Shown here piece after piece: positions 9,179-63,550 of a stretch of DNA of 64,000 nt. The DNA is taken from contig OX597816.1 of the NCBI GenBank assembly GCA_951406725.2, forward strand, positions 104,346,001 through 104,410,000, in the 5' to 3' direction. The DNA comes from Octopus vulgaris. Lineage: Eukaryota. The notes under the pieces are model-generated. The model did no database searches and had not been told where the DNA came from. It worked only from the letters and a program-made list of their open reading frames with translations. Positions within the stretch are counted from its first letter, which is position 1, and every line of letters begins with the position of its first letter. The position numbers and the translations under genes were made by a program.

Positions 9179-9220
<42 letters not shown>

Positions 9221-9350: not shown

Positions 9351-9487
9351 CAATAACAGTCTTGCATAAGAATAATATATACTCTACAAATGTATAAAGT
9401 AAGCAATGAGATTATGTAAAAAATGTTTTTATAACTGAACATAAAAACGAACATTAATATATAACTGTATAATAATATATATTCTCT

Positions 9488-9817
9488 GATTTGAAGCGAC
9501 AATTTCTAAATCCAAACAAAACGCTAACCCCAGCCAGAATCGAACCCACAAATCAACGCTAACACGGCTCCTTGTGCATCTGATTAGGCCAAACACTTCT
9601 CCTTCAATTTCTGGTTTGTTTACAAATATCATATGTAGTTTTAGACAGTTTTAGAAGTATGTATTCATGAAATTTGGCTGAAATTGATTTGTGAGTGTTT
9701 GGCTCTATCGGATGCGCAAGGCGTCTTGTTGGCTTTGATATGTTGGTTCGATTTTGGCTGGGGTAGCTCATCATTTTCCGGCCATTTGTTTGTATTTAAA
9801 CACTGTCGTTTCAAATC
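9488..9817. repeat. Diverged long inverted repeat (fold-back or MITE-like)
   Basis: Left GATTTGAAGCGACA...CCCCAGCCAGAATCGAACC...CCTTGTGCATCTGATTAGGCCAAACACT matches the reverse complement of the right arm over >100 bp. Confidence 0.8.

Positions 9818-19854: not shown

Positions 19855-19855
<1 letters not shown>
15603..19855 (-). mobile_element. Penelope-like element, Naiad-like, 5'-truncated, with long 3' region and pLTR
   Basis: PADKTGNMY, LKDHKKNF..NPSVRLICP, DIPMGSSDSAE, GLYRDD, then CKCR..CP..C, VIYKC..YIG, CQLC..E, CVH; frameshifts between ORFs 19466-19969, 19053-19322 and 17323-19143. Confidence 0.9.
15752..15842 (-). ncRNA. Type-I hammerhead ribozyme in the Naiad-like pLTR
   Basis: Minus strand TTTTAG-CTGATGA-GTACAGGACA...TGTCCTTGTAT-GAAA-CGATTGTA^CTAAAA; intact core, GUA triplet, same orientation as the ORF. 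Confidence 0.85.
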
Positions 19856-19885
<30 letters not shown>

Positions 19886-21196
19886 GTATGTATATAAATA
19901 TATGTGTGTGTGTGTGTATGTGTGTGTGTGTTGAATTAATATACACATGTCATCTTTCGCTTGTTTCAACTACATGAGTGTAGCTATCTGTTAATGTGCT
20001 TTTTCATTTTCAAGATGGCATGGTATTAGCTGAGGGCGTTTTTGTTGTTGCTTGCTTTAGCCTTTAGACCGACCGTCTACAGGTTCCCTCAGTTCAACGA
20101 ATCCGTGAAGTTATGCTGTTTACTGTCAACAGATGCCATGAATATATAACCAGATGTTGACAGCTGACAGTGAAGCAATTTTCCAGTATCTATTGCTGAT
20201 GCAGAGAGTGCATGTGTTTCGGGTAGAACAATGAAGTGTGCTGTTATCCTTATGATAGCAGTAATTGATAGAGAGCCAATTATCTTACAAGGATTGTTGA
20301 CAAGGAGATCATTTAATACTGTCAACACACACTGTGCATCTACAGTTTCGAGGTCAGATATTTATAGAAGGAGATATTATTCTAAGAGAAGAGTTTATCA
20401 GCAAGGAGTCTTGCTTGATATTTTTTATTATATTTTATTTTTCAATACTATTTGATAGAATCAGTCTCAACACAGCATTAATGATTTCTATAATTTAATA
20501 ATGATGTCTGAGAGACTCAAACTTAATGATCGTAATGTTTGCAAAACTTAATAATTTGAAAATCAGAATATTCAAAAGGGATTTGTTTCTACTTCCTGCA
20601 CAGTTCCTGTTGTATAAAGAAGACAAATACGACAGCTTCCCGCTAAAACAATGGTGCTTAAGAGGATAGCTTTATTATTTATTTAATTTTTTCTAAAACA
20701 ACTTCATCTTACTTTAAAATTAAAAACAAAAGGATCGACTTTCAGTAGCATTTTGAATGTTATAAACTCATACTAATTGGAAGAGAACATTAGAAGGAAG
20801 ATCTGAAGAAAAAAGTTCCTTCCAAATAGCTATTGTTGTTTCAATGATAAAAGATGACACAGTTGAAAGTTAATAATGCATCGTACATGTCATCATGTCT
20901 GCAACGAAAAATAATAATAAACAGAAGGGAAATGTAATAAAATAAATCATTCTGATTAGGTAACTTCACTTCAAATAATCATAGGAAACAAAATCAATTG
21001 AAAACAAGAGCCATACTATAAAAATGTGATTCAACACCGCGCCAAAAAAGACTAATACACGTTTCTAGTATATAACAGTAACGTAGCATTGCACATTCAC
21101 ACACACACACAAACACACTCAGGCATGTGCGTGTGTGTATGTCTGTTTATTTGTGTGTGTGTGTGTGTGTGTGTAGTGCTACATTACTTTAAAATA

Positions 21197-22638: not shown

Positions 22639-22700
22639 ATTATTATTATAATTATTATTATTATTATTATTATTATCATTATTATTATTATTATTGTTAT

Positions 22701-23615
22701 TGAGTATATTTTTTATATCGTGCTTTCACTTCACTACCGAGCGCAGCTCTGTGTGCCTTGGGTATGTGCTGTGATTTGTTGTGATGCTCTGATGGTTATT
22801 GTATGGAAAGTGTTCTGCGTAGGATGTGTGCAGTGCCTAGTAGTGCAATTTTATGTATGTTATATGTGTTTGTAAGTCCTGGTGTTTTTGTTATGTATTT
22901 GTCTGAATATTTTTTTATCATGCCTAATGCACCTACTATGATAGGAATTGTTTCTGTTTTCAGATTCCACATTCTAGTTACCTCTATTTCCAGGTCTTTG
23001 TATTTTGAGAGTTTCTCCATTTCTTTTAGAGACACGTTGTCATCTGCCGGTATTGATACATCAATTAGAAAGCATTTTTTTTCTTCATGATCTCTGACAA
23101 CTATATCTGGTCTGTTGGCCTTAATTTCTCTATCTGTGTGTATCGGCATATCCCAGAGTATGGTTGCTTTCTCGTTTTCTGTGACCTTTTCTGGTGTGTG
23201 CCTATACCATCTTTTTTCTGTTGTTATTCCATAATGTTGGCATAGTTTCCAGTATATATAGGTCCCAACTCTGTCATGTCTGTGAATATATTCCTTCTTA
23301 GCCAGGACTGAGAAGCCAGAGATAATATGATTTATTGTTTCTTGTCCATCTCCACATATTCTGCAGTTACTTGTTATATTTCTTTTCATTACATGTTTTT
23401 GGTAATTTCTGGTGGGGAGGCTTTGGTCTTTTGCTGCAATTAAAAATCCTTCTGTTTCTGCTTTCAGTCCTGAGCTTCTCAACCATTGTTGGGATTTTTC
23501 TTTGTCTATTTCTTTTGCATTTAGTTTAGTCCAATATTTGCCATCGTTTTATTATGGTTCCTTGCTATTCTATTTTTAGTTTGGATTTCATTTGTTTTAT
23601 AGCTTTTGTTGTGTC

Positions 23616-23647
<32 letters not shown>

Positions 23648-26600
23648 TTCTTCTTCTTCTTCTTCTTCTTCTTCTTCTTCTTCTTCTTCTTCTTCTTCTT
23701 CTTCTTCTTCTTCTTCTTCTTCTTCTTCTTCTTCTTCTTCTTCTTCTTCATTTTTGTTAGGTGGTATGATTTCTTGTTTGTATTTGTCAGCTTCCTTAAA
23801 TACTGAGAACAGTTTTTTGTTTTGCTCGTATTTTGCCGCTATTTGTATAAATTTTCCTTCCTTCTGAAGTAGATATTTTTGCAGTCCTATGGTGGTTATT
23901 TTATAGTAGTTTTCCAGCTGTATAAGGCCTCTACCACTATCTATACGTTGTATATATATAGCCTTTCTATGTCAGATTTTGGGTGACGCATCCTAGATCC
24001 TGTTTATTATTTTTCTTGTTTTCCTATCTATTTTGGTCAGTTCATTTAGTGTCCAGTTAAGGATATTGTAGCTGTAACTTATGACTGGGCCGGCTAAAGT
24101 GTTAATACCTATTATCTTGTTTTTAGCATTGAGCTCTGTTTTCAGTATTGATCTAACTCGTCTATAATATTCTTTTTTATATTTTCTCTTTCATTTGTGT
24201 GTGTTGTGTCTTATCTAGTTCATGGATTCCTAAATATTTGTAAGTTTGGCTTTGGTCTAATTCTTTTATTTCATTGGTTTCATCTAGTGTGATGTTGCTA
24301 CTCTTAACTAGCTTTCCTCTTTTCAGGGTTACTTTGGCGCATTTCTCTAATCCATATTTCATATCTATTTCTTTGGTAAACCCATGAACTGTCTTTAGTA
24401 GTGTTTCCAGCTGTTTGTCATTTGTAGCGTATAGTTTTAGGTCATCTATATATAAAAGATGGCTGATCGTTTTGCCGTAACATTTATATCCGCATCCAGT
24501 TCTGTTTAGCATATCCAATAGAGGTGACAGTGCCAAGCAGAAAAGGAGTGGAGAGAGTGTATCTCCCAGGAATATTCTCTTCTAATGGGGATGGCTTTGG
24601 TTTTCACAAGTCCCTCTTTTGTTTGGAGCTGTAGCACTGTTTGCCATTTATTCATAGAGTGTCCTATGTATTTTATAATTGTTGGTGCAACTTTGTTCAT
24701 GGCTAGTGTTTCGAGGATCCATGTGTGGGGGATGCTATCAAACGCTTTTCTGTAGTCGATCCAGGCCATACTAAGGCCTTTCTTCTTTCTGTGGCAGTCT
24801 TCAGTTATGGCTTTATTGATCATTAGTTGATCTTTACAACCATATGAGCCTTTGCGGCATCCTTTCTGCTCTTCTGGAAACAGGTTGTTTTCGTCCAGGT
24901 GCTTGTTCAATCTTTGCGATATTACTGCAGTAAATGCTTTGTACATTGTAGGGAGACAGGTTATAGGTCTGTAGTTTTCTGGTGTTGCTGTCTCATTTGA
25001 TTGGGGAATTAAGATGGTTTTCCCTTCGTGAGCCATTCAGGCATTGTCTCTGGCTCTGCTAGTATGTTGTTAAAATTTTCAGCCAGTTTTTTGTGCATTC
25101 CTGTTAGATATTTCAACCAGAAGTTGGGGATCTTGTCATGCCCAGGTGCCTTCCAGTTGCTTAGTCTTTGCATTGCCTGGGTGACCTCTTCAGTTGTTAT
25201 GGGGGTCCAAAGTTGCTCAGATGCTATGTTTGGTGTTTTAATACTCCTTTTTTTTGGTTGTTCGTTCGCCGACCATATTTCTCTCCAGAATTCTTCCACT
25301 TCTTCTGCCGTTGGTGCTGCAGTGATTTCCATTTTATTTTTGCCAAGTTCTTGGTAGAACTTTTTGGGGTTGGAGTTGAACTGTTTGTTTTGTTCAAAGA
25401 AACGTTGGCGTTTCTCGTACCGGCGGATCCTTTGTGCTTTGGCAAGGATATCTTGCTTTAGCTTTTCTTTTATCTCAGGTAAATCTTTTTCTGTGATGTT
25501 GTATTTGCGGAGTATTTTTGTGTTCTTTTTGTTGCTCAGTAGCGTTGATTGTCTACCGATTTCATTAAGAATCGACAGATCTTTTCTCATTTTTTGTATT
25601 TTGTTTTGGATGTTATTTATCCACAGGGTTTGTTAGGGTTGTGGTACTCTTGTTTGAATGGGTTTGAGTGAGTATCCTGCTGCGTATACTAAGTCATTTA
25701 GCTCAGTGATATCGCTTTTTGTTTCAGTGGCTATTAGTTCCGTGACGGCTAGGTTTATGTTGTTTATAATTGATGTTGTTGTTTTGTCTATTTTGATTTT
25801 TGGGAGGTATGGTCGGTGGTCCATTTTGAGCTCTGTGGTTTTCAGTTCTTTGATTATTCTACTTTTTATAGTTTCATAATCATTAGGCCCCCTCTTCGTT
25901 GTTTCCAGGTTTTAGATTTGTGTCGCTTTCTTTCTCATCCGTATGTTTGTTTGTCGTGTTTTGGCTTGCTGTTTGTCGTGTATTATTATGTATCCTTACG
26001 GTCTGGGTTTGTTGTTTTTTGTTTACATCGTTTTTGTTGGAAATGTTACGTTTGTCTTCGTGTTTTACTGTTTCAGTGTTTGTATTATTTGGCATTGTTG
26101 TGTGGCTTCTATCTACATTTTCCTTATGTATTTTTTCTTTTAAATGTTTTATTTCTATTTCTGATATTCTTTTGCGTTGAGAATATATCTCCGTATATTT
26201 GCTAGTTTATTAGGGTTCATTGTTGTATCCAGGTCTTTATTTATGTTATTTTTCTTCCATATTTTGTATGTATGTGTTGTTGTATTTTCATTCTTTGGGT
26301 AGAGCACTGCTGTAAATTAAGCGTGTAGGATAGAAATGTATTCCTCACGTGTCCATTTATGTCTTTTTGGTATTATTTGCGGGACATCAGGAACAACGTC
26401 CGGCCAATTATTTTGACGGTCGTCATTTTCGTAGGGTACCGGTCCGTTCATTTCTGTTGTCACATTGTTTTGCACGTGTAGTTTTTCGTACATTTTATGT
26501 TGTAAGTATACAGTACGTACTTCCCAATTGTTATTCTTGGGTTGAATAATACCGGTATTATTTAATTTCTTCGTAGTTTTTTTGTACATGGTGTTTGGGT

Positions 26601-26866
26601 CCGGAGATGATCTGGTGTTGATGGATCGTAATGTATCAAGCATGTTTACATGTGTTGTGTTAGAGGTGGAGATGATATCGAGTTAAAATACATCATTTCG
26701 TTTTGAAAATAGTAATAAATTTCAATGAGTATTACTTACTCGGATATAGTCCAAACCTTTGTCAGTTATTTTTTTAGCTCCATGCGATGTCTTTGTTTCC
26801 GATGTTTGTGGATAGATTTCGGAGCACTGTTTTATTGCTCTCACATGTTTAACGTCCCCGGTGTAA
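22701..26866 (-). mobile_element. Near full-length R4/Dong-type LINE, frameshifted
   Basis: N-terminal KWTREEY, RT (WKAPGHD, NYRPITCL, WIDYRKAFDS, YIDD), CRIC..H zinc knuckle, RHD, NRPDI..D..K..KY RLE; flanked by (TAA)n and (GAA)n. Confidence 0.93.
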
Positions 26867-26970
26867 TCTTCTTCTTCTTCTTCTTCTTCTTCTTCTTCTT
26901 CTTCTTCTTCTTCTTCTTCTTCTTCTTCTTCTTCTTCTTCTTCTTCTTCTTCTTCTTCTCCTTATTATTA

Positions 26971-33271: not shown

Positions 33272-34756
33272 TTATTTGATAAATACTATGTTTTCATAGG
33301 CTTCTATTAGTTTCATGTGCTGAGAACATGCCAAACGTTGTTTTACGAGGGGCGTTCAATAAGTAATGCCCCTGACCCACTTCCCATAGCAGTAGAGCAA
33401 CGAAACTTGGCACAGTTATTAGTCTTTTTCTACATAGGAACCACCCAGAGTTACGCATTTCTCCCATCGTTTGATGCGGCTCTGGAGACCGTTTTTGTAG
33501 AAGAACCCAGCTTGGTCCTCCAACCTCAACGTGACTTCAGAAATCAAGGCTGCATCATCTGGGAAACGCTTTCCTTACAAAAACAACTTCATGATTGGGA
33601 AGAGGTGAAAATCAGAGGGTTCAAGGTCAGGAAAGTAGGGGGGATGGGGAGGAGTTCATAGCCATACGCCTGTGCTTCTGATCTGGCGACAAGCGAGTTG
33701 TGGACCAGAGCGTTGTCCTGCAGGAGGAGGATGCCTTTGCTGATCTTGCCCCGCCTCTTGATTTTGATAACTTCTCTTAATTTCCTCAAAAGTGAAGCAT
33801 AATAGGCTCCTGCAGTTGTGGTACCCTTTGCCAGGAAATCTGTCATCACTACTCCGTCCTGGTCCCAGAAGACTGTGAGCATGACCTTGCCAGCGGAGGG
33901 CTGCACCCTTGCCTTCTTTGGAGGGGGTGAGTCACGGTGCTTCCACTGCATTGACTGGGCTTTGGTCTCTGGATCATCGTGATGGACCCAGGTTTCATCC
34001 TGTGTAATCAGTCTTTTGAAAAATCTTGACTCATCTTCTTGGCACATCTCCAAATTCACCCTCGAGCACTCGACGCGTTCTTGCTTCTGGAAAGGCGTGA
34101 GCAACCTGGGAATCCATCTGGCAGACATCTTTTGCATATGCAAATGGTCATGAATGATAGTTTCCACAGACCCGGTACTAATCTTGAGCTCATGGGCTAT
34201 TTGGCGAATAATTATGCGTCGATCTTCTAAAATGGCAGCCTCAACTTGACGGACAGATGCCTCATCAATGGCAGAAGGGGGCGACCAGATCTGGGAGCTG
34301 TTTCCACAGAGTTCCGACCATGTTTGAATTCACGATGCCAGCGTTTTACAAGGTCATATGATGGAGCATCATCACCATAAGTTACTTTCATTTCATCAAA
34401 AGTCTTCCGTGGTGTGCGTCCTTTCAAATACAAAAACCGGATCACTGCTCGACACTCAACAGGCTCCATTTCACACTTGACTCGGTTCAAACACCTGTAA
34501 ATCAGAAACCACAATTAATTCAGAGCTGTAATTTGCCACTTACTCTATAGAGATATAAATGAATGGACATGCAAAATTTCAGCTAGATCAAACAAATGCA
34601 AGTGGGTCAGAGGCATTACTTATTGAACGTCCCTCGTATAATACGTCTGATGATTCTGCTGGGACACCAGACGTGTTATAAAACAATGTTTGGCATGTTC
34701 TCATCACATAAAACTAATAGTAGCACATGAAAACATATATGGTGTTTATTAAATAA
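33272..34756. repeat. Fold-back element (~90-bp arms) interrupted by the mariner
   Basis: 33272-33345 joined to 34639-34652 is the reverse complement of 34665-34756. Confidence 0.8.
33346..34636 (-). mobile_element. Full-length mariner transposon (1291 bp, irritans-like), frameshifted transposase
   Basis: ~37-bp TIRs CGAGGGGCGTTCAATAAGTAATGCCCCTGACCCACTT, TA duplication, HTH ending PRSGRP, WIPRLL, TQDETW, QDNA. Confidence 0.95.
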
Positions 34757-39131: not shown

Positions 39132-39857
39132 TTAGTTAGTTAGTTAGTTAATTTGGCTCAAAAGCAAATAGCAAGGCCATGTAGGGGGACATGGAGTTAA
39201 GTACAGGGTGGTGTTCATGTAAAGAGTTCAGGCCACTTGAGGTCCAGGGAGGCTTTGAACAAAGCGGTCGTCGGCATCTTCACCATCTCGTCCGGCAGCT
39301 TGTTCCACGGATCCGCAACCCGGACGGAGAAAGCTCCTCTCCTTCGATTGAGATGAAATCGTCGCAGGTAGGGTCGGAATGACCCCGCAGCCGACGCTCC
39401 GGAGCAGGAGTGAAGAACAGCTCTTTCGAGAGGTTACACTTCCCGCTTATGATGTTGTGGGCGAGAATGAGATCACCACGGCGGCGGCGTTTTTCAAGAG
39501 AATAAAGGTCGAGCGTCCTCAGCCTTTCTTCGTAGGACAAATTTTTGAGACCATGAACCATGCGGGTAGCCAGCCTCTGGACTCTTTCGAGATGCTGTAT
39601 GTCTTTGAGGAGATAAGGAGAAGAGGCTTGAATCCCATACTCCAATATGGGTCTCACCAGCGTGACATAGAGTGGCAGGAATATGGCTGCTGTGAGCATT
39701 CCGAATGACCGTCGAATCAAAAACAGAATTCCGCGCGCTTTGTTGGCAGCATGGACGCACTGGGCCGAAGGCGAAAAGGAGGAGTCCACCAAGATACCCA
39801 GGTCCTTTACCTGATCGGTCCTCTCCAGCAGCAGACGACCCGGCTCGAAATCAAGTT
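39132..39857 (-). mobile_element. 5'-truncated CR1 LINE
   Basis: KARGILFLIRRSF...LYVTLVRPILEY...LERVQRLATR..LSYEERL..L.LYSLEKRR.RGDLI; (TAAC)n tail. Confidence 0.92.
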
Positions 39858-40699
39858 GAAATAATTAAGACATCTTAGGAAATCTCTTACAAAACTTTTC
39901 TGTGTATTGTTATATATCTTAATATATATTTGATATATATAATCCAATTTGATATTAGCATATGCAATTAGTTTCGAGCTGTACAGTGCGTAGTTGATTT
40001 ATGCATTTTAGACAAATCTAAAACAACTTTTATAGATAACAAAACGATTGACCAAGGTTCCGTACATTACAATATTTCTTTAGGAAAAGCCGATTCAAAG
40101 AAATAGGCATCTTACATAAACGGTAGTAACTAAAGAAAACAAGAAAAAAAAAACAGCAGAAAATATGACAACTGGTGTTACTTGCCTTTAACAAAATAAT
40201 ATTTTCCACGACTGAGTAACGAACACTTCTCATATTTACAGTAAGTTATTTAACCAATATAACCTTATATCTGAAGAAAAAGTACCAGCAATATTTGGAG
40301 TGCAAACATCGGCGGGAGATATTTTGATATTAACAAGACACCCAAAATACGTTGTACAATTTCACAAATATATAGACTTGTTCTCACAACACTTTTCAAA
40401 ATATTAGCGTCTTTTAAATTAAGAAGTCACTTCCATAAAATATGTGTAGAAGGAAAAGAAAAACCTAACAATTTTTAGCAGCCCCCAAAGTAAAGAGAAA
40501 GTAATTTTAAGAAATTATGCATGTATCGCAAGGAAAATCTAATATTCTGGCATTTGGTGAAAAATGACAAGATCGCAGCTATGCACGTTTTTCTACAGAG
40601 GAACAATGATTTCCTAAAATTACATGATGGGTAACTAAATGTTTATGAATATTTGAGATTAATATAATGAGTCATAATTACTAAACATGAACTTAGAGA

Positions 40700-41620: not shown

Positions 41621-41912
41621 CTCTATTTTCAGGGTGATACTAAGGGGACAGAAAGCAGACCGGTGATTATGCAAATTTACCTTGAAATTAGTGCAGCACG
41701 TGGTGACATAAAGAAACCTAGATTGAGCCATAGATACCGTGAACTGAACGCAATATTCTTGGTGAGACATTTATTAACTGATGGGCAAGAGGCTAGGTAT
41801 TTGAAGCTACATAGTTTCGTCGCGTGCTCTATAGGGGTTTAAAAGGGCATATCTGTTTCGGATTCTATTTTAGTATTATACAGTTTTACTGTTATGAGGG
41901 GCTGCGAAGTTT

Positions 41913-43291
41913 GTGTTCAATAATACGGGACCCCGTAGCAGGTTGAAGAAATGTAATTGTAGGGACCCATCAGAATGTCCGATTAGCGGAAATTGTCGCC
42001 AGGAAAATGTAGTTTATAAATGTAGTGTTGAGGCTCAAGGAGGCAAGAGAAAAATATATATTGGTAGCACAGTAGACTTTAAGCAGAGGTATCGATCCCA
42101 CCTGAGCTCTTTCAACAATCCTAAATATAGGACCTCTACAACATTGGCATTACATGTTAATGACCTTAAGGAAAGGAATGTTGAATTTAAAATATCATGG
42201 GCTATCCTTGCGCATGCCTCCCCTTATAGAATTGGGTCCACTAGATGCGGTTTATGCATAAGGGAAGCATATACTATATTGAAAAATTACAACAATGCAG
42301 TGTTAAATAAGTTCACTGATGCAATACCGGCGTGTACGCATAAGATCCACTCGACGTTCCATAGGAAATTTAGAAATAGAAATAGCAATAAAAGTTAGAG
42401 CTAAGCAATAACAATTGAGTTAAGTTTAGTAAGTATAGTGGATGGTAAACGAGGTAAAACTAAAGTAATGTAATTATAAAAAAAAATAGTTGTTAGTCGA
42501 GGACTCGAACCTGAATATGTTGCTTTGCATGTATGGGAGAATTTATAAAATTGAAATAAAATAAAATAAAATAAATTAAGTGCTGAAGTGAAATGGTCCA
42601 GATGGCGCTGTGTGCATACAATTTACTATGGCGGCTTGATCGAATTGTATACGTATAAAGTTCCATTCAGGATCGACGAAAACATTTCTGGGAGTACGTA
42701 AATGCCGTGTTCTGAGAATGGTCGGTATGTGATTGTGTATTTGTGTATTTGTTCATGTTTTATATGTGTTGTATAGGACATCCTGATGAGGGGAGTGCCA
42801 ATTTTAAGTACTATTTTAAGTACTGATATGTCTAATATTAATTGGCATATCCTCGAAACGGCCCGTAGATGGACTTCCGTATATCTTATATTTTTGTAAG
42901 CCTGTATATGTATTATATTCTATGTACTATTCGTCGGAATTTTAATCGTCTTTTGATATGCCATATTTTTATTTTATTATCATTATATTTATTTCTCTTA
43001 TTCTAATAGTTTTAAGCGTGTTATATGCAAAATTTATATTTATATTTATATTTTTATTTGGATACTCATATATTACTGAATTTTTTATTTTTTTTAAATG
43101 TCGGACTGTTTAGATATAAATTAATATATAAGATTTGTATGTATTTGGTCTATCTTTGAATTTTGTGATGTTCCTGTGGTTGTTGCTCGCATTGCCTCCC
43201 CTTGGATAAAAAAGTGTATACAGCTCATTGTAGCACTTCTATTTCCAGTCCGTTGTATATCTTGTCACTCAAGATATAACTTTATATTTTG

Positions 43292-46305: not shown

Positions 46306-47100
46306 GAAAAGATATCTATTCACTCTACTTGGCATATTATGTTCTGTCCCAGATAATTCTTGCCGTATGTAAAATATATTTTTATGATTTAGTACTATTA
46401 CATTATGACATGCATTCATACATACACACATACAAACGTACGTACATAAGTACATACATACATACATATATATACATACATGCATGCATACATACATGCA
46501 TACATACATATACCACGCATAATTATAAATACATAACGTACATATGTACGTATATATCTGCATATGTTTATATCGTAAATTTTATACTATACTCTTCGTA
46601 TCCTATTGTTCTGCACATGCATACATTTTGATACATGATTCACAGTCACAGCTCTTAATTTTAGCGCACCTTTTAACTATCACGTGTACATCTTATCCGA
46701 TTATCTTAAGTTTTAAATATGACAAGATAAATCCCCTTTCCCATGTAACTTAAGCAATTCATCCAACTGCATTTGAAAAACAACTTTCGACCATTCAAAA
46801 TGCTTCATTTTGGTGCCTCTCTACTTGAACAACTTGCTGGAGCCCACTCTTCCTAAACAGCAAGAAATAAAAGGGTTCTATGAGGTTTGCATTCTCAAAT
46901 TGGTACATAAATTCATTCGTTTATATGGTTACATATATGCATTTCGGTGAGCATACAACAATGTGAAGTTACTTTATGCTGCCGCACCTATATGACACGT
47001 CTCGTGAAATTAACAGTACTAATGTCATTGTTTATCTTGCATATATTATAAACTGCGGCTAATCTATATTTCAAAATGATTAATTTTTATGCTCTGTATA

Positions 47101-47258
47101 TTCTTTTCTACTCTAGGCACAAGGCCCGAAATTTAGGGGGAGAGGCCCAATCGATTTGATCGACCTCAGTACGCAGCTGGCACTTAAATTATCGACCCCC
47201 GAAAGGATGAAAGGCAAAGCCGACCTCTGTGGAATTTGAACTCAGAACGTAAATGCAG
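47101..47258 (-). mobile_element. SINE family C, 3' part (split copy)
   Basis: Homologous to the reverse complement of the copy at 63341-63550; continues at 53817. Confidence 0.85.
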
Positions 47259-47435
47259 TTCTATATTTAAGAGATGAGGAACTATGTACATTATTTACAT
47301 TATTCATATTTTACGGTTATTTGTTCCCATCTTGTGTGTTGTTAATACAACGTTTCGGCTGATATACTCTGCAGCTTTCATCAGGTGTCCTGGGGAAATT
47401 TCGAACCTGGGTTCTCATTCCTAAGGTATTTCACT
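47259..47435 (-). mobile_element. Hammerhead-bearing terminal arm (left); ribozyme at 47345-47388
   Basis: Minus strand ACAC-CTGATGA-AAGCTG...CAGCC-GAAA-CGTT^GTAT; inverted homologue of 53668-53816. Confidence 0.85.
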
Positions 47436-47468
47436 GTTGTTGTTCTTATTGTTATTGTTATTGTTATA

Positions 47469-47537
<69 letters not shown>

Positions 47538-47538
<1 letters not shown>

Positions 47539-50500
47539 TGTGTTTGACTTTTGCTTTACGTCTGTACAAGTTGGCTCCAAGTCTCACCCAGAGACCTCAA
47601 GAGACAACAGGTTGGAAGTTCACGTTGTTGTTATGCCTAGTGTGCCATATATTTGGGGGGTTTGTTGGTGTTGTACTAGTGAATGCCTAATACATAAATT
47701 AAAAAAAAAAGTTTGTTATAAACCTTGGGATTACATAGAGAGTATTTTGCGTAGGATATGAGCAGTTCCCATGAGCACTATCTTTTGAATTTCTGCCATT
47801 TTGGGGTTTCCTGGTATCTGAGTTAGGTAGTAATCAGCCCCTTTCGCTATCATTCCCAGGGCACCTATGACAACAGGTATTGCTTTAGTCTTCAGGTGCC
47901 ACATTTTGCTGATTTCTATTTCAAGATCTTTATATTTGCTCAGTTTTTGGTAGGTCTTGACAGATACGTTTATATCGATTGGGACAGTCATATCAATGAG
48001 GAGGCATGTTCTTTGTCTGAAGTCTTTCAATATGATGTCTGGCCTATTTGCATCTATCTTTCTGTCAGTTTGAATGGTGAAGTTCCAGAGGAGTGAGATG
48101 TGGTCATTTTCAAGCACTGGAGGTGGATTGTGTTCCCACCAGTTTTTTTCATGGGGCAAATCCAGGTTTTTGCAAATTACCCAGTGAATATATTGTGCAG
48201 CTCTATCATGCCTGTTGAGGTACTCTGTAGTCGCTAGAAGACTGCATTTGGAGATAACATGATCAATGGTTTCATTTTGTTGTCGGCATACACGACATGT
48301 TGGGCTACTGCCGTTCTTTAATATGTTGGCCAGGTAGTTTCTTGTTGGTAGGCATTGATCTTGAGCTGCTTTGATAAACCCTTCTGTTTCAGATTTTAAG
48401 CCAGAGGCCATTAGCCATTGATGGGTCAGGGCTTTGTCAATATCTGCATTATTCGCTCTCTTTGGGTATTTGCCATAGAGAGGTTTTTCTTGCCATTTAT
48501 TATTCAGAATATCTAAGGCCGCAGTTTTGGCACGGGTTTTCATGCGCCTAGCTTTTTCTGTGCTTGTTTTCCTGTATATCTATCTCTAATTCCGAAATTT
48601 GTTGTATTCGGAATTCACTTAGATATTCCTTTGCCTGTTTTGTTACTGAGTATGATGCTTTCTTGTTTTCATGTTTTAAGACAAGTTTTAACATCCAGTC
48701 TTCAGACTTTTTCAGGTAGGTGTCTAGGCCAATTATAGCAATCTTCATTGTTATTGCCAGTTGCAAAAGTCCACGGCCTTCCTCTTTTCTTGGCAGATAA
48801 AGTCGTTCTGTATCTGCCTTAGGGTGGTGCATTCTATGCATTGTCAACAGTTTTCTTATTTTTCTGTCGAGCTGACATATTTCAGTAATTGACCAGTTAA
48901 CGATATTGAAACTGTAAGTCACGACTGGTATGGCTAATGCATTGATCGCTTCGATCCTGTTTCTTGCATTCAGCTGTCTTGAGTATTGCTCTCACTCTTC
49001 GATAGCGTTCTCTTCTGATCCTTTCCTTCATTTCTGAATGCCTTATTCCTTCTCCTTCAATTACCCTTAGGTACTTGTAGCTCTCCGCTGGGTCTAGTTC
49101 TTTTATGACATTCTGCTGGTCAAGCTTAGCGTTAGATGTTTCTGTCATTTTTCCTTTGATAAAGGTAGCTTTTGCACATTTATCGAGGCCGAATTGCATT
49201 CTGATGTCGTTACTGAATTGTTTGACTATCGCTAGTAAGCCCTTGAGTTGTTGGTCATTTTTTGCAAAAAGCTTTAAATCATCCATGTAAATGAGATGAT
49301 TTATATTTTTATCAAACATTTTATACCCGTACTGCGCGTCATTGAGCAGTTTTGAGAGAGGTATTAAGGCTAAACAAAAGAAGAGTGGTGACAGTGAGTC
49401 ACCCTGGAAAATGCCACACGAAATTTTTACGTCACCAGCATTTAGTGATTCATTGTCACTGTTCAGAGTTAGTGTGGTTCTCCATGATCTCATACTTACA
49501 GTCAAAAAGTTTCGCAGAGTAGGTGCTATCTTATACATTTCCAGGCATTTCCTAATCCAGCTATGTGGTAGGCTATCAAAATCCTTTTTATAGTCTATCC
49601 AGGCTATTGATAAGTTTTTGTGTCGTTTGTGACAATCTTCTAAGATCATCTTATTGATGAGTAGTTGATCTTTACAGCCGTAGGATCCACGTTTACATCC
49701 TTTCTGTTCATTAGGGAATATGCTGCTGTCTGTTAAAAAACTATAAGTATATTCCGTCAGGACAGATGTTAGCGTTTTGTACATAGTTGTTAAGCAGGTT
49801 ATGGGTCTATAGTTTTTTGGTTCATTTGTTTCTTCACTTTTTGGAAGCAGGCATGTTAACCCATTAACTAGCCAATGAGGCATCCTACTAGGGTGTTGCA
49901 AAACATCATTGTACAGTTCTGTTAGCAGTTCATGGCTCTCTGGGAAGGCATTTAGCCAGAAGTTAGGAATGTTATCCTTTCCTGGAGACTTCCATGTGCT
50001 TGACCTCCTGAGAGCAGATACTATATCTTCTACCTTGACACCCTCCCACTTTTGCTCTTCTAAGGGGTCCAGTTCTGTAGGTATTCTGTCAATCCAGGGG
50101 GCCTTTTCGTTGTGTGTTTTTTCTTCTGCCCAAATTTTATTCCAAAATCCCTGCACTTCTTTTGTTGGTACAGACCTTGCAGTAAACGCTGTAAAAATTC
50201 TTGGGGTTATTTTTGAACATGTTGTTGTCCTTGAAAAATCTAACACGCTTTTCATACCTCGCTATGCGGGCAGCTTTGGCAGATACCTTTTGTTTGATGG
50301 TTTATATGGTGGCATCAATATCAAGTATAGTTTTCATATTGTATATTTTCAGCAATTTTGGGGTTTTTGTAGGTTTGGTAGTCTTGTGAACCTTAAGGTT
50401 TTTCAAATATTCAATGTCAGATCTAAATAGTTTAATTTGTTGTTGCGGACGCTCTTGCCGAGAAGGCTTTTTGTGGGAATGTTGCCGTTTTCTAATCTTT

Positions 50501-52416
50501 ACACTACATAGGATCGTTGAGATTTTCGCGGATGCATAGTATAGGTGTTTGAGATTTGTGATATCAACATCATTAGCTGAAATTATATCCTTAAGTGCAA
50601 GCTGGATTTTACCAATTATTTTCATGTCTTGGTTAGAGTTGCGGATTTTAGGGAGTGTATCACGTTCATCCATGCTGGTTTCTTTAATTTTCAGCCATTC
50701 AATCGTGATTTGATTTTTTAGCTCATGTAGTTCTGTTGGGTCAATATTTGTGTGACTTTCTTTATCTATTTGATGTTCATCTGTCTTAGTGTTTATGATT
50801 GGTTCAGGGAGTATTTCACTTTGCCTATCACTTATACTAACTCTTTCAATCCTTACTTCGTTTTTATCAGCCCTGGGCTGGTCTATAATTATTTCCTCAG
50901 TATTATCTTCTCTAGCTGCAGCCTCGTTCATTTTATCCGATATTGCTTGTCTAACTTGATCAATCTCTACTTCAGTCAGTAATTTTCTTTTTATAATGTT
51001 TCTTCTGACGTTGGCAAGTTTGTTACTGTCTATGTAGGGTCTTACTTCAGGGTGTTTCTGTCTCCAGTTTAAGTATGTTTGTACAGTGTTAGATTTATCT
51101 GTGGGGAAATATATGGCATGGTAGAAGGCCTCAAGAACTTTTTTATTATCTTCCCTAGACCATTTTTTTTCTTTTTCTTTTGATTATTTGGTGACGAGCA
51201 TGGATGGCCATCTGTTGGAATATTCCGGTTGTGGGGTACGTCCAGCTCCTGTGTGTTGGGAAGATTTGATCCAGTAGCTGATTTTTCAATCAGAATTTGG
51301 TTCAATTTTCGGGGTACGTGGTCTTTTGTAATCCGCGCGACGACCAATGCGGTTTATTGTTCGATTTGTTGACATTGAAGCATGACGAGCTTCCATTCTT
51401 ATATTAGGAGATGGATCTATCAGTTTAGGGTTCTCTACACGTAAGCATTGCTCGTAGCGCAGCTTCTTAAGGCTAGCAGATCTGTATTCATCTGTATTTT
51501 TATCTCCGAACATTTTTTCCCCTTCTCTTCCTTTTTTCCTCTCTCTTTCTCTCTATCTCCTTCTTTCCCTTTTTCCTTCCTTCTTTTCCCTTCCTCTTTT
51601 AAACTTATAAAAGGCTCACTCTGCCTGTATTAGTTCGAAATAATGAGAATAAAATACGGAAAAAGAAAAGAAAAAAAGGGATCTGTCAGTTATTATTGTT
51701 ATTACTATCACCTTCACCACCATCACCATCATCATCATCATCATCACCATCACCATCATCATCATCAATGACATTGTTTTATGTGTAGTCACAGCCACCA
51801 TCATCAGCACTACTGCCATTGTGTGGGGGAATGGTTGATTAAAGAGGTCGTGTTCTATGGGTCTATAAATAGATTCAGCAGATGGTGGATACAAAGGACA
51901 TTAATGGTCAGTAAAAGGTCAAACCTGTTTACATTTACTTTTTTTTCCTTTCTCTTTTCTTCCTTTCCACATACATATGAATATGTATATGTATACTCAC
52001 ATACATGTTATCTGATGTTTACGTCGATTTTTTTAAAATTTCTGAATTCAGATGTATGTATATATTAGCAGGTGCTTACTTCCATAATTTTTTTATCGTG
52101 CATTTAATTGTGTTGTTACAATAAAAGGCAATTTAAAAGGCAATTTTACACATTCTTATAGTCATGAGAGACGACTAAATGTTCACACAAAATTGGAGAT
52201 ATTTATGTTTCTAATTTTCTTGTTAGGTGTACGATTGTATGAGCTGTAGGTATGTAAGTTCCTTAACTTATTTTGAGGGAAATTCAAATTACTCATAGAA
52301 AACAGTAGATCTTCCAGTTTTCTACAGTTTTTTTCAGTTGTCCTGCTGGGTTAGCTGTTGCCAGTTCAGAGCATCGGAAAAATACGTCCATCCTCTGTCA
52401 CGTCCAGCCGCCTTCC
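47538..52416 (-). mobile_element. Probably full-length R4/Dong-type LINE (~4.9 kb) inserted in (TAA)n
   Basis: RT (WKSPGKD, GIFQGDSLSP, YMDD), CRVC..H..SKC, RHD, NRPDII..D..K..KY; long (ATT)n on both sides. Confidence 0.93.
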
Positions 52417-52453
<37 letters not shown>

Positions 52454-52485
52454 GATTATTATTATTATTATTATTATTATTTATG

Positions 52486-52578
<93 letters not shown>

Positions 52579-52583
52579 ATTTT

Positions 52584-52647
52584 TCAGGTCACTGCCAGGA
52601 GTCGAACTCGGAATCTTGGGGTTATTAGCCCGCGCTCTTAACCACTA
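52584..52647 (-). other. tRNA-like head, truncated inverted copy
   Basis: Minus strand TAGTGGTTAAGAGCGCGGGCTAATAACCCCAAGATTCCGAGTTCGACTCCTGGCAGTGACC. Confidence 0.8.
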
Positions 52648-52696
52648 GAGGGAGATCAAATTTACTAACGTGCAAGCAAGTAATTTTCTCGCAACG

Positions 52697-52768
52697 GGGC
52701 ATAAGGCGTAGTGGTTAAGATCGCGGGCTACTAACTCCAAGATTCCGAGTTCGATTCCAGGCAGGACC
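52697..52768 (+). other. tRNA-like head with Pol III A/B boxes (not a functional tRNA)
   Basis: GGCGTAGTGG A box, anticodon-like loop CTACTAA, GAGTTCGATTC B box; acceptor stem does not pair. Confidence 0.8.
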
Positions 52769-52769
52769 A

Positions 52770-52801
<32 letters not shown>

Positions 52802-52829
52802 GTAATAATAATAATAATAATGATGATGT

Positions 52830-52862
<33 letters not shown>

Positions 52863-52879
52863 AATAATAATAAAAATAA

Positions 52880-53655
52880 CAACACTCATGTATGGATGAA
52901 GAGCTCAGGAGTGAAGGCTGAAGCCGTAGGTTTTATCATAGCAGCACAAGATCAAAGCTTGGCAACCACGGCTTACCGCAACAAAATAATGAACGATGGC
53001 ACTGACCCGAGATGCAGAATGTGTCATGATCAAGATGAAACTGTGGACCACTTCTTAACTGGATGCACAGCACTAGCAAAAACCGAATATATTCATAGAT
53101 ACAATAGAATAGCGCAATATATCCATTGGAAGATATGTAAACACTACCAGCTTCCAACTTCAGAAAGATGGTACCAGCATAAACCTAAAACTGTGACCGG
53201 AAAAGATGATGTAACAGTACTCTGGGACATGCCAATGAACACCGATAAAGAAATCAAGGCAAACAGGCCGGACATAATAATCAAAGATGGGAAGGATAAG
53301 AAATGCTTAATGATAGAAGTGACAGTACCATCAGAGAGAAATGTGTCCATTAAAGAGGTTGAGAAGTTATTTAGGTACAAAGAACTAGAAATAGGAGTAA
53401 CCAATGTGGGGAATGAAAAGCAGCACAGCACCAGTGGTGATTTGAGCGTTAGGGCTAATTAAAAAGGGCCTTGATAGGCAGCTCAACAAACTCCCTTGCA
53501 GTGTTAATGTTGGAGAACTTCAGAAAATAGTGTTACCATGTTCCGTACTCATTTTACGCCGTGTACTCTCCATGAGATGAGGATCTGCTGTGACCCTAGG
53601 GTCAAGAGATGACCCCGGTTCAGTAGAAAACGGACCATATTTTATTTTAAAACAA
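52880..53655 (+). mobile_element. 5'-truncated R4/Dong-type LINE in (AAT)n
   Basis: SGVKAEAVGFIIAAQDQSL, CRMC..H..GC, NRPDIII..E..K..Y. Confidence 0.9.
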
Positions 53656-53667
53656 TAATAATAATAA

Positions 53668-53816
53668 CATCGAAAAATACCTTAGGAATGAGAACCCAAG
53701 TTCGAAATTTCCCAAGAAACCTGATGAAGTCTGGAGGGTATATCAGCAGAAACGTTGTGTTAACAAGAAACAAGATGAGGACACATATTCGTCAAATGTA
53801 AATAATGTAAATAACG
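53668..53816 (+). mobile_element. Hammerhead-bearing terminal arm (right); ribozyme at 53717-53760
   Basis: AAAC-CTGATGA-AGTCTG...CAGCA-GAAA-CGTT^GTGT. Confidence 0.85.
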
Positions 53817-53888
53817 TCAGAACATAAAGGCAGACGAAATACCACTAAGCATTTCGTCCGGTGTGCTAACGTTTCTGCCTGCTCGTCA
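53817..53888 (-). mobile_element. SINE family C, 5' part (split copy)
   Basis: Minus strand GAGCAGGCAGAAACGTTAGCACACCGGACGAAATGCTTAGTGGTATTTCGTC matches the head of 63341-63400. Confidence 0.85.
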
Positions 53889-58900: not shown

Positions 58901-59289
58901 ACAAGGAGGGACACTAGACAGACAATCTCAGTTCTGGAGAGAAAAATTAGTGCTTAGTTAAAATTTTAGCAAAGGAACATACTGAAGATTACAAAAAGAA
59001 GAGAAGTGTAGTCCTGTTTAGAGGTTGTGTGCTATTTTAGAGAAGATAAAGTTGAAGTAGCAGAAAAAATTCCCAAATAAACATGAGAACCACTTATTTT
59101 GTAGGGTATTGTTAAATCTGTAAATGAAATGATAATCATTTTCATTTTATTAAACTGCAATATCTGCGTGTTTCTTATATGCCTACATATGCGTGTGTGT
59201 TTGCGTGTGTGTGTGTGTTTGCGTGTGTGTGTGTGTGTGTGCGCGTGCGTGTGTGTGTGTGCGTGCGTGTGTGTGTGTGTGTACTAACT

Positions 59290-61650
59290 CACTACATGTA
59301 TGTACTGGAAAAGATAATGGACGTAATTAGACGTATGAGGTGGAAAGCATTCTACCGCGACCTAACCACACCAACCCCGGAGGACAACTATGGAATCAGA
59401 TCGAAAAAATACCCAACCAAAATCAAGGACCACGAACTCTTCGAAGCGGATCTACTAGGCATCACTTCCCAGCTGAAATTCCGTAAGTCCTCTTCTTCCT
59501 TAGAACACAAACACCGGGCAGACATTAGATTGTTAAAAAAAACTCAGATAGGTCACTAATCTTCTCTGATAAGACGAAAAATTTATATAGGATAGACATC
59601 CTAGGTTACGATAGACTACTAAAAAAATCACACAAAATTATAGGCGCGCTGCCTGCACGCATATAATGACATCAACAGTGAAGCCCCCAAAATCAACTGA
59701 CAAAATAGAGATAGCGGATATGGTAGAGATCCTAGCTAAAAGAAACTCTTTCATTACCATAAAATATCATAAACCGAACTTTGCCTCAAACCCTAAATTC
59801 CGCCGGATCAATCCGGCCAAATTTGAGATCAGTCTGGCGAGTAAGCTCATATTGAGAAATTAAATGACACCAATTAAATGACCGCATGGTTTAATGCCAA
59901 CAAAGGAAGATATAGTTTGATACAGTCGACTTTTACTCAAAAGGACTACTGACCAAGGGGATTTCGTTCACTAAGGGCTTCCCTGACATTGGCGACAGAG
60001 ATATAGAAGTTATTATGCATGCCAGAAAGACAGTGCTGTTCAACAAATGTTTGGCATGGGTCAAGCAATCCGATCCTGACGATATACAACCTTCATCGGG
60101 TTGTACATCTTCGATACCCTTAAGAATGATTTCCTCTCTGTCCTCTTTGGCCCCAAAAGATATGACACCCTGGCCATCTCTTAGGTGGGGAGGAAATGGA
60201 CATACACTAGAGAGGCTTAGGAAATGTCAAATCAGCACGCTTGCCTCCATGAAAATCACCATAGAGACCAACCTCACAGCCGCGGACTTCTTAGACATCA
60301 CGCTCGACTTGTGCTCTGGTACATACAGGCCCTAACGCAAACCAAACGAGAGGCTAACGTACTTCAACACAGCCTCCTGCAACCCATCCATCGTGTTCAA
60401 AACACTGGTGAAGTGTGTAAGAAGATCACGAATCTGTCCTCCGACCAAGATATTTTCAACGTAGCGGCCCCGTATTATTACGAAGCCCTAGCTGCCAGCG
60501 GATTTAGGGACCGCATCTCCTACATGCAGTAGCAGTCGTAGATACAAGAGCAGAACTAGCAACGTCGCTACAATCGTCACAGTGATCAATATGCAACAAT
60601 AAAAATAACAGCACCTGCAACAGCATTGGCAGTTCCCTCGACGGCATCGACAGCAGTATCATCAACAGCAACATCGCTATCAGCAGTAGCATTACCAGCA
60701 GCATTCCTAAAGTCCACAGTAGAAGAAGTGACAACCCCTATAGCAGCGGCAACAAGTACAGTAGCACCGCCAGCAATAACGGCAGAAATAACAACAATGG
60801 CAACAGCAGCAGCAGCGACAGTGGCCTTAGCAGAAACACCAGCGGGACCACAGCTAATAACGCCTCTAGGAGCAATGGCAACTCTCCCATCAATGAGGGC
60901 CACAATAACAACGGCACCTTCACCATAACCGGCAGTGGCAATACCATTACCAACGCCACTACTACTACCTCCAGCGACGCCAGCACCAGCAGTCCCAGCC
61001 CCAACAACATCGATGTTGGCGGCAGCAACAACAACACCAGCAGATACAGACACAGCGCCAATAACACACGCCCACGGAGATACATTGGATGTTCCGGGAA
61101 CTATAAGAAGCAACGTCTCTCCAACCACAGGTGCTCCCTCAGAGTTTCGGAAAGGAGATACGTGACATCAATGGCCAGCCACGTCGGGCAACTAAGAGAC
61201 GATGGGCTTCCATACTCGATCTCATGGAAAATGCTCGAGAACCCAGGCCCCTACATCAAAGGAACGAAACGATGCAAGTTATGCATAGCTGAACGCGCAG
61301 GAATCCTAAACGACTCACTCGAACTACAGAACATCCTTAACTCCAGAACGGAAGTTCCTGCTAGTCTTTTTGGCGCCCACAAAAATGCGGCACAACCGGA
61401 AGTCGATAGCAAAGTGAGGTAATCACCAGTTGTTACCTTTGGGTAGTGAAGTATTTCCTACTTCATATTTTTGAGAGGTCTTGAGCCAACAAGTTTTGGG
61501 ATCTGACAATACGCCATAAAGCTAAATCCTTTATGGACGGGAAACTTAAGGCAATCCTATAAACCGGCCTTTCCCGTTTTTAATATAATTTATACTGCTT
61601 TACATCTTAGAATGTGCTCCTTCTTTCGATTTATGTTTTTTCAGACGATT
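59290..61650 (+). mobile_element. Old, multiply frameshifted Naiad-like Penelope element
   Basis: LEK..DVIRRMRWKAF, FITIKYHKPNFASNPKFRRINPAK, DFLDITLDL..GTYRP, ISWKML..PY..G.KRCKLC..E. Confidence 0.85.
61498..61557 (+). ncRNA. Degenerate hammerhead downstream of the Naiad-like ORF
   Basis: GGAT-CTGACAA-..CCATAAAG..CTTTATGG..-GAAACTTAAG-GCA-ATCC; stems retained, core and triplet mutated. Confidence 0.5.
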
Positions 61651-63150: not shown

Positions 63151-63550
63151 TGCGAGCTGGCAGAATCGTTCACATGTTCTGAGTTTAAATTCCGCCGATG
63201 TAGACTTTAATTTTCATCGTTTTGAGGTCAGTATAATAAGTACCAGCTGTGTACTGGAGTCAACGTAGTCACCTTATTCCCTCCCATGAAACTGCCGGCC
63301 TTATGCCAAAAATTAAAAATCAATATTTATCTGCTTTAAAGCGGCGAGAGTTATTAGTACGCCGGGCGAAATGCTTAGGCGGTATTTTTCCTTCTCTTTA
63401 CATTCTGAGTACAAATTCCACTGAGGTTGACTTTGCCTTGCATCCTTTCAGGGTCGATAAAATAAGTACCAGTTGAGCACTGGACCGATATAATTGACTT
63501 ACTTCATCTCCCGAAATTGCTGGCCCTGTGCCAAACTTTGAAACCAATAT
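63151..63550 (+). mobile_element. Two tandem SINE family C copies (63151-63325, 63341-63550)
   Basis: Both share GTTCTGAGTT.AAATTCC...GACTTT...CATC.TTT...ATAAGTACCAG.TG. Confidence 0.8.

What the first reader, a model, noticed from the sequence alone, without database searches (positions are those of the whole stretch)
47242..53833. 6.5-kb fold-back insertion with outward-facing hammerhead arms and a 17-bp target duplication
Seen: a family-C SINE is cut in two (47101-47258 and 53817-53888), with TCAGAACGTAAATGCAG (47242-47258) repeated as TCAGAACATAAAGGCAG (53817-53833). Removing the two Dong LINEs leaves [hammerhead arm rc]-(ATT)n-[tRNA-like rc]-49 bp-[tRNA-like]-(AAT)n-[hammerhead arm], a head-to-head dimer inserted in one event; the right arm lacks ~35 terminal nt. 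Known: Penelope-like elements carry type-I hammerheads in pLTRs and often insert as inverted structures. Inference: a non-autonomous element mobilised by PLE RT/GIY-YIG.
Basis: partly seen in the sequence, partly recalled or inferred. Interest (0 to 1): 0.85.

Follow-up and report, generated by a model that had tools for sequence, protein, structure and literature searches.

The report
Inverted dimer of tRNA-headed hammerhead retroelement
Two back-to-back copies of a small, abundant jumping element with a tRNA-like start and a Penelope-type self-cutting-RNA end landed here in one old event and were later hit by two larger retroelements; it looks like a SINE that borrows Penelope enzymes instead of the usual LINE enzymes.

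Summary
A SINE is split with a 17-nt duplication (15/17 identical), and its halves rejoin against an intact copy. Between the duplicates lie two inverted units, each tRNA-like head, (AAT)n, then an arm with a minimal type-I hammerhead. Only the left unit has a 29-32-nt tail. Of the 6,558 bp, 5,655 are two later, unrelated Dong/R4-type LINEs, so the original insert was under 0.9 kb. Inverted copy, one-sided tail and minimal hammerhead are the known signature of Penelope-like elements (PLEs). Public contigs from 4 runs add three things. The head is very abundant and has a sharp 5' end. That end usually carries a short inverted copy of itself, and other head-to-head junctions exist. The 49-bp spacer is single-copy. 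Best reading (0.65): a tRNA-headed SINE moved by PLE RT/GIY-YIG, whose self-complementary 5' end joins two cDNAs head-to-head. It may be the octopus OK SINE of 1994 (recalled; paper not held). Not shown: the head-arm link genome-wide, the autonomous partner, and ribozyme activity (both copies are decayed). I found no description of a PLE-dependent tRNA SINE in the searches made.

The parts
47098..47258 (-). 3' part of the interrupted tRNA-type SINE (target)
   Evidence: aligns with intact copy 63354-63550
47242..47258 (+). left target-site duplicate (17 nt; last 3 nt may be shared with the element end)
47259..47287 (-). 29-nt tail present on the left unit only; forms the 3' strand of a predicted stem
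   Evidence: (z -1.9, weak)
47288..47432 (-). left arm with minimal type-I hammerhead (core CUGAUGA starts at 47384, pointing outward)
47433..47537 (-). (AAT)n linker of left unit, outer part
47538..52416 (-). later insertion: near full-length, frameshifted RT + REL-endonuclease LINE (Dong/R4 type) in (AAT)n
   Evidence: PF00078 E 2e-25
52417..52582 (-). (AAT)n linker of left unit, inner part
52583..52647 (-). left tRNA-like head, first 12 nt missing
52648..52696 (.). 49-nt single-copy spacer that replaces the family's usual palindromic junction
   Evidence: depth 0-45 against 1-2 million on the heads; no significant fold, z -1.07
52697..52770 (+). right tRNA-like head with A-box-like (52704-52714) and B-box (52747-52758) motifs
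52771..52879 (+). (AAT)n/(AAC)n linker of right unit
52880..53655 (+). later insertion: 5'-truncated 3' end of a second Dong/R4-type LINE family
   Evidence: 47% protein identity to the first LINE
53656..53817 (+). short (AAT)n and right arm with minimal type-I hammerhead (core starts at 53721), no tail
53817..53833 (+). right target-site duplicate
53817..53888 (-). 5' part (head side) of the interrupted SINE

Best explanation
The unit is a short non-coding retroelement: a tRNA-derived RNA polymerase III head, an (AAT)n linker, and the 3' end of a Penelope-like element (minimal hammerhead, terminal stem-loop, optional 30-nt tail). It is copied in trans by the RT/GIY-YIG protein of an autonomous PLE. 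At this site the endonuclease cut the two strands 14-17 nt apart inside another SINE. Each cut end primed reverse transcription of the element's RNA, one from the RNA end (with tail, left) and one from the internal start site about 30 nt upstream (no tail, right). Both cDNAs ran to the head. Because the family's 5' end is self-complementary, the two cDNA ends paired and were joined head-to-head. The palindromic centre was then, or later, replaced by 49 nt of unrelated DNA, and two Dong/R4 LINEs later inserted into the (AAT)n linkers. SHOWN: duplication, inverted units, one-sided tail, hammerhead motif, abundance and sharp self-complementary 5' end of the head, other head-to-head junctions, single-copy spacer, independent LINEs. 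INFERRED: head and arm as one family genome-wide, Pol III transcription, the PLE partner, two-sided priming and cDNA pairing, order of events at the centre, octopus as host.
For: (1) The hammerhead has the features listed for metazoan PLE min-HHRs in PMC4209133: extra nucleotide between 9 and 10.1, palindromic ACGU helix III, short helix I; each copy breaks helix I pair 3 and pair 10.1-11.1 on the opposite side, so the two copies together imply the intact pairs. That paper also reports min-HHR pairs 100-700 bp apart on opposite strands. (2) An inverted copy at the 5' end and a 30-40-bp tail at one end only are PLE hallmarks (PMC8557442). (3) The purified anole PLE protein cuts and extends both strands, is predicted to be a dimer, and starts reverse transcription at two sites separated by the tail (PMC11167929). 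(4), 4 of 24 listed runs, 195 bases laid: 6,019-9,502 contigs per run lie on the heads; summed depth peaks at 2.0-2.2 million against about 40-55 for single contigs (a rough 40,000-100,000 copies; the tool warns that this is not a copy number). Loose ends past the head's 5' end read CGCCATATGCCCGTGGGCA and then diverge into AT-rich sequence (163-241 contigs per run at 52647), i.e. a short inverted copy of the 5' end around a 2-nt loop. Joints from left head to right head without the spacer occur in 4 of 4 runs (52647 to 52697: 5, 7, 7, 1 contigs; 15, 20, 21, 10 contigs over the 15 of 81 joint rows shown), several with small central deletions. The head's 3' end is followed by (AAT)n in all four runs. 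(5) No run of four T in either unit, as expected of a Pol III transcript. (6) Divergences agree with one event.
Against: The head-arm link is seen only in these two copies, which come from one event; loose ends are 30 letters long and stop in the (AAT)n. No autonomous PLE with this end was found; the arm matches none of the PLE fragments of the window. The target is not AT-rich (7 of 17 G/C), whereas the anole enzyme prefers AT-rich DNA. Whether the right arm ends at a preferred family start site was not tested. The short inverted 5' segments of single copies could also come from snap-back of one cDNA, so two-sided priming is not the only route. The joints have only 21-46 letters on the shorter side: they show head-to-head heads, not whole dimers. 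tRNA likeness is below Rfam's threshold. The predicted cleavage triplet is GUU, a weak one (own knowledge), and both ribozymes are decayed.
Confidence: 0.65

Rival explanations
1. Two separate events: an ordinary inverted pair of PLE end-pieces beginning in (AAT)n made the duplication, and a head-to-head pair of a simple tRNA-(AAT)n SINE entered the centre. The head-arm join is local.
For: Head-to-head heads recur on their own in the genome; inverted PLE ends are common; an earlier AI note on another genome (e1-7811937) found such a join to be a one-off; the genome-wide link was not shown.
Against: Needs a symmetric second insertion exactly between an (ATT)n and an (AAT)n; heads and arms are equally diverged within error; the head family itself shows fold-back 5' junctions with AT-rich flanks, which a PLE partner would explain.
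Confidence: 0.13
2. A conventional SINE moved by a LINE (for example Dong/R4, which shares the AAT repeat), with the inversion made by twin priming and the hammerhead a passenger.
For: tRNA head, (AAT)n and a 14-17-nt duplication are normal for LINE-driven SINEs; Dong/R4 elements are abundant and active in octopus (PMC13282606).
Against: The element ends in a unique tail, not in a repeat; the arm has no match to the three REL LINEs of the window; 5' flanks of heads are mixed AT-rich sequence, not (AAT)n, whereas Dong targets TAA repeats (PMC3812793); a one-sided 30-nt tail is described as shared by and unique to PLEs.
Confidence: 0.1
3. The head lies inside the pLTR of a longer or autonomous PLE, and these are two 5'-truncated copies, so there is no separate SINE-like family.
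For: PLE insertions are usually 5'-truncated and inverted; the right unit extends 49 nt beyond the head.
Against: The 49 nt are single-copy, and depth falls from hundreds of thousands to under 700 at the head's 5' edge on both sides; upstream loose ends agree at only 0.41-0.58. A minority of longer copies could hide in the 474 loose-end rows not shown.
Confidence: 0.07
4. A DNA-level product: a fold-back or MITE-like transposon, or an inverted duplication made by repair after a single insertion.
For: Long inverted arms around a spacer; repair could also explain the spacer.
Against: The ends are unequal by a defined tail; the duplication is 14-17 nt; a duplication of the tail-less unit could not create the tail, and most 5' junctions are single heads with a few inverted bases.
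Confidence: 0.05

Closest known systems
Insertion units of endonuclease-bearing Penelope-like elements (Penelope/Poseidon, Neptune, Nematis; PMC8557442 passages, PMC4209133 parts 1-2 of 4, PMC11167929 parts 1-2 of 4)
   Same: Minimal type-I hammerhead near the 3' end, inverted copy at the 5' end, about 30-nt tail on one side.
   Different: No ORF; a tRNA-type head with a fixed, self-complementary 5' end in place of random 5' truncation; no homology shown to any autonomous PLE.
Non-LTR retrozymes, proposed non-autonomous PLE derivatives (bioRxiv 10.64898/2026.07.22.740005, parts 1-3 of 5)
   Same: Short, non-coding, type-I hammerhead, proposed to use PLE enzymes.
   Different: Retrozymes are defined by head-to-tail tandems; here the copies are head-to-head with ribozymes on opposite strands. 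The parts read describe no Pol III head, and the listed outgroups include no mollusc.
Schistosoma SM-alpha / Sj-alpha SINE-like elements (as reviewed in PMC6765202, passages)
   Same: Pol III promoter followed by a hammerhead in one short repeat: the closest layout.
   Different: They occur as tandems that are cut to monomers which lose the promoter, and carry canonical hammerheads; no tail, fold-back or PLE partner is described in the passages seen. Sequence homology not tested.
Octopus OK SINE family (Ohshima and Okada 1994; only the citation was seen; paper not held)
   Same: From memory: a very abundant octopus tRNA-derived SINE with an internal (AAT)n and a purine-rich end. This element may simply be OK.
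   Different: Not testable here. I recall no hammerhead, tail, fold-back or PLE link being described for it; two searches for the name found no paper.
Dong/R4 LINEs (for the two nested insertions; PMC3812793 passage, PMC13282606 parts 1-2 of 3)
   Same: RT, zinc knuckle and restriction-like endonuclease motifs; all 3 such LINEs in the window sit in (TAA)n.
   Different: Clade not confirmed by a tree; database hits carried no clade name.

Membership tests
tRNA-derived SINE | tRNA-like head with A and B boxes | tested here: met
   A-box-like and B-box motifs at tRNA spacing (box consensus recalled); Rfam tRNA 18.4 bits, below threshold
tRNA-derived SINE | short, non-coding, high-copy, defined 5' end | tested here: met
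   shown for the head only; no protein relatives of three frames tried
tRNA-derived SINE | 3' end shared with a LINE, or a simple-repeat / A tail | tested here: not met
   unique tail; no match to the LINEs of the window; only this window could be searched
tRNA-derived SINE | transcribed by Pol III | not testable with these tools
   no T4 run inside is only compatible
EN+ Penelope-like element | minimal type-I hammerhead near the end | tested here: met
   2 hits in the window, null 1 in 400 windows; decayed in both copies
EN+ Penelope-like element | inverted copy at the 5' end and 30-40-nt tail on one side | tested here: met
   29-32-nt tail, left only
EN+ Penelope-like element | RT plus GIY-YIG ORF | tested here: not met
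   no such ORF in the unit; it can only be non-autonomous
EN+ Penelope-like element | end homologous to the pLTR of an autonomous PLE | tested here: inconclusive
   no match in the window or, by three exact short motifs, in the supplement of PMC8557442; no genome held
EN+ Penelope-like element | AT-rich target | tested here: inconclusive
   this site 7 of 17 G/C; family 5' flanks AT-rich
Non-LTR retrozyme | head-to-tail tandem of hammerhead units | tested here: not met
   inverted at this locus; no tandem in the window; genome-wide not tested
Non-LTR retrozyme | self-cleavage and circular RNA | not testable with these tools
   no RNA data laid
Schistosoma SM-alpha type | Pol III promoter followed by hammerhead | tested here: met
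   layout only
Schistosoma SM-alpha type | tandem array and sequence homology | not tested
   no tandem here; no reference sequence at hand
Octopus OK SINE | sequence identity to the published consensus | not testable with these tools
   paper not held; no SINEBase supplement
MITE / fold-back DNA transposon | equal terminal inverted repeats and short fixed duplication | tested here: not met
   ends differ by 29-32 nt; duplication 14-17 nt
Dong/R4 LINE (nested insertions) | RT + REL endonuclease, inserted in TAA repeats | tested here: met
   endonuclease motif read by eye; no tree

The most novel reading that the evidence does not exclude
One of the most abundant SINEs of this genome is driven by a Penelope-like element, not by a LINE: a class of tRNA-headed, PLE-dependent SINEs. 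Its self-complementary 5' end is self-perpetuating: a head-to-head source copy yields transcripts whose leader pairs with the head, their cDNA ends pair or snap back, and new fold-back insertions result. Because every transcript starts at the same place, tens of thousands of junctions record at base resolution how PLEs build inverted insertions and tails.
Probability: 0.45. Interest if true: 0.72.

Novelty: new variant of a known kind. Interest (0 to 1): 0.55.

Why it matters
SINEs are taken to depend on LINEs. Known non-autonomous PLE derivatives (retrozymes) have no tRNA head, and the hammerhead SINEs of schistosomes have no shown partner in what I read. A high-copy tRNA SINE carrying the PLE tail and fold-back signature would add a new SINE-partner pairing; a 2024 paper on small-RNA-derived mobile elements does not mention Penelope at all (0 occurrences). 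How PLEs form inverted insertions is stated to be unresolved (PMC8557442), and this family makes it testable from genome data and with the existing in vitro system. It would also change the annotation of a large repeat fraction: 893 of 900 recently active SINE families of O. vulgaris are unclassified. The locus itself is an old, dead insertion with no sign of host function.

Tried and rejected
No genome is held for the window, so copies could not be counted directly. Rfam gathering search of the whole window: 0 matches; the hammerheads are not found even at E 10. Exact-pattern scans with an arm motif (metagenome, genome and viral contigs) and a head motif (metagenome and genome contigs): 0 matches each, as expected for an animal repeat. 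Attempts to see the head-arm link in spurious predicted proteins failed: no hits and 3 chance hits to repetitive proteins. The spacer had no cover in 2 of 4 runs, both read in part; no conclusion drawn. Spacer as a hairpin: rejected (32 of 200 shuffles fold as well). LINEs as part of the inverted duplication: rejected (47% identity). My first hammerhead scan missed both arms because it allowed too little slack at stem II; the looser descriptors were written after seeing the arms, so their null rates are somewhat flattering. Literature: 10 searches found no paper describing an octopus SINE with a hammerhead or a PLE-mobilised tRNA SINE; subscription papers, Repbase, Dfam, SINEBase entries, the Zenodo library of PMC13282606, one MetaSINE supplement file and bioRxiv supplements were not visible and could hold such a description. 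Three papers were not held. Earlier-findings look-ups by sequence, place and one word set were empty.
Full report
Setting. No genome is held for the window. The repeat content (tRNA SINEs, Dong/R4-type LINEs, Penelope-like fragments, long microsatellites) and my recollection of the SINE sequences point to an octopus; no tool named the host. The only genome-wide evidence comes from one laying of public contigs on 195 bases.

Observation. The two 17-mers match at 15 of 17 positions and occur nowhere else in the window at that level. The SINE halves rejoin without a gap against an intact copy at 63354-63550 when one duplicate is dropped, and need about 15 extra gap columns when both are kept. The arms are inverted at 85% over 144 nt; the left one continues for 29 more bases to the duplicate. 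The heads are inverted with 6 differences in 64. The two LINEs are different families (47% protein identity), each lying in the (AAT)n of one unit in that unit's orientation; a third LINE of this type in the window also lies in (ATT)n, and Dong elements are known to target TAA repeats (PMC3812793, passage). They account for 5,655 of 6,558 bp. The original insert was therefore at most 903 bp, including microsatellites that have probably grown since.

The hammerhead. Rfam misses it. By hand it is a minimal type-I motif: helix I of 5 bp, CUGAUGA, one extra A, helix II of 5-6 bp, GAAA, and a palindromic ACGU in place of helix III. These are the traits given for metazoan PLE ribozymes, which are thought to work as dimers (PMC4209133, parts 1-2 of 4). 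A descriptor with these traits hits the two arms and nothing else in the window; 400 shuffled windows gave 1 hit (descriptor written after seeing the arms). Each copy has lost the third pair of helix I and the 10.1-11.1 pair, on opposite sides, so the pairs were most likely intact at insertion. Both copies are probably inactive now, and they lie on opposite strands, so they cannot pair in one transcript.

The head and its 5' end. Rfam gives only a sub-threshold tRNA match, but A- and B-box-like motifs stand at tRNA spacing and neither unit has a run of four T. In 4 of the 24 listed runs (three species labels), 6,019-9,502 contigs per run lie on the heads, with summed depth about 2 million against about 40-55 for single contigs: very roughly 40,000-100,000 copies. 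The spacer has depth 45 and 37 in two runs and none in the two partly read runs: it is single-copy, so the family ends at the head and the head is not the inside of a longer element. Past the 5' end the loose ends read CGCCATATGCCCGTGGGCA and then lose agreement in AT-rich sequence. The first bases of the head are thus normally preceded by an inverted copy of themselves around a 2-nt loop; the consensus rows suggest that this copy is 3 to about 10 nt long. All four runs also hold contigs that pass from one head into an oppositely oriented head without the spacer (15, 20, 21 and 10 contigs in the 15 of 81 joint rows shown), with various small central deletions or fillers. Perfect palindromes assemble poorly, so these are lower bounds; they prove inverted heads, not whole dimers. 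The head is followed by (AAT)n in all four runs, but the 30-letter loose ends (24 of 498 rows shown) do not reach the arm. Five pattern scans and three protein searches failed to supply that link.

Age. Pooled divergence between the units is 0.137 (Jukes-Cantor), 0.069 per copy; arms, heads and duplicates do not differ detectably. At the rate used in PMC13282606 this is about 19 million years, close to the SINE/LINE expansion that paper reports at distance 0.065. This holds only if the host is an octopus.

Mechanism. An inverted copy at the 5' end and a 30-40-bp tail on one side are described as PLE hallmarks (PMC8557442, passages). The purified anole PLE protein cuts and extends both strands, is modelled as a dimer, and starts reverse transcription at two sites separated by the tail (PMC11167929, parts 1-2 of 4). 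The simplest fit is that both cut ends were primed, one at each start site, and that the two full-length cDNAs were joined through their self-complementary ends. Snap-back from the tail-less cDNA cannot produce the tail; snap-back from the tailed cDNA that stopped 29 nt short remains possible. The 49-nt spacer replaces about 14 nt of the usual centre; long perfect palindromes are known to be stabilised by central rearrangements (own knowledge; a search for a paper found none), but capture during joining is equally open. All of this paragraph is inference.

Comparison. It works like a PLE insertion unit but is not a PLE (no ORF). It has a SINE head but lacks a LINE-type or repeat 3' end. It is not a retrozyme by the tandem definition (bioRxiv 10.64898/2026.07.22.740005, parts 1-3 of 5). 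Its layout is closest to the Pol III plus hammerhead repeats of schistosomes (PMC6765202, passages). From memory it resembles the octopus OK SINE of 1994, which I could not read; if so the family is long known and only its ribozyme, tail, 5' hairpin and partner would be new. Ten literature searches found no such description, but Repbase, Dfam, subscription papers and several supplements were out of reach. Other papers seen as passages only: PMC10886601, PMC4824008, PMC4758252, PMC3531059, PMC6962438, PMC8969392, PMC8967140; none described this element. Earlier AI notes on other genomes judged similar fold-back hammerhead inserts ordinary, and one SINE-head join a one-off; I did not test them, and they keep the two-event rival alive.

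Verdict. Real feature, correctly described in outline. The locus is an ordinary PLE-shaped, dead insertion; the family behind it is probably a tRNA-headed SINE that depends on a Penelope-like element. New variant of a known kind; interest 0.55, held down by the unproven genome-wide link, the missing partner and the chance that it is already in repeat databases.

Noticed in passing
window 22680-26890 (-): A third RT + REL LINE, flanked by (ATT)n on both sides with an added (CTT)n tract; 65-80% similar in patches to the two nested LINEs.
   Followed up: partly
window 13048 (+) and 13690-15260 (+): A second hammerhead-like core about 640 bp upstream of a broken RT + GIY-YIG Penelope-like ORF with a cysteine-rich linker; SINE pieces lie between them; no similarity to the arm.
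   Followed up: partly
window 17323-19969 (-), 41898-42398 (+), 59128-61422 (+): Further Penelope-like fragments with C-terminal GIY-YIG-like motifs (read by eye); two have long low-complexity linkers (Asn-rich; Thr/Ser/Asn-rich).
   Followed up: no
window 63176-63256 and 63354-63550 (-): An intact copy of the interrupted SINE followed directly by a partial second copy.
   Followed up: partly
window 47242-47258 / 53817-53833: The insertion falls just upstream of the B box of the target SINE; an earlier AI note on another genome reports a PLE hot spot in a SINE (e1-9979726). Whether this site is a hot spot here is untested.
   Followed up: no
window 33589-34329 (-) and 39280-39864 (-): A mariner-like transposase fragment and a CR1/L2-like LINE 3' fragment (read by eye).
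   Followed up: no
window 51420-52416: The 5' untranslated part of the large LINE is about 1 kb long and holds (CAT)n, pyrimidine-rich and AT-rich tracts.
   Followed up: no
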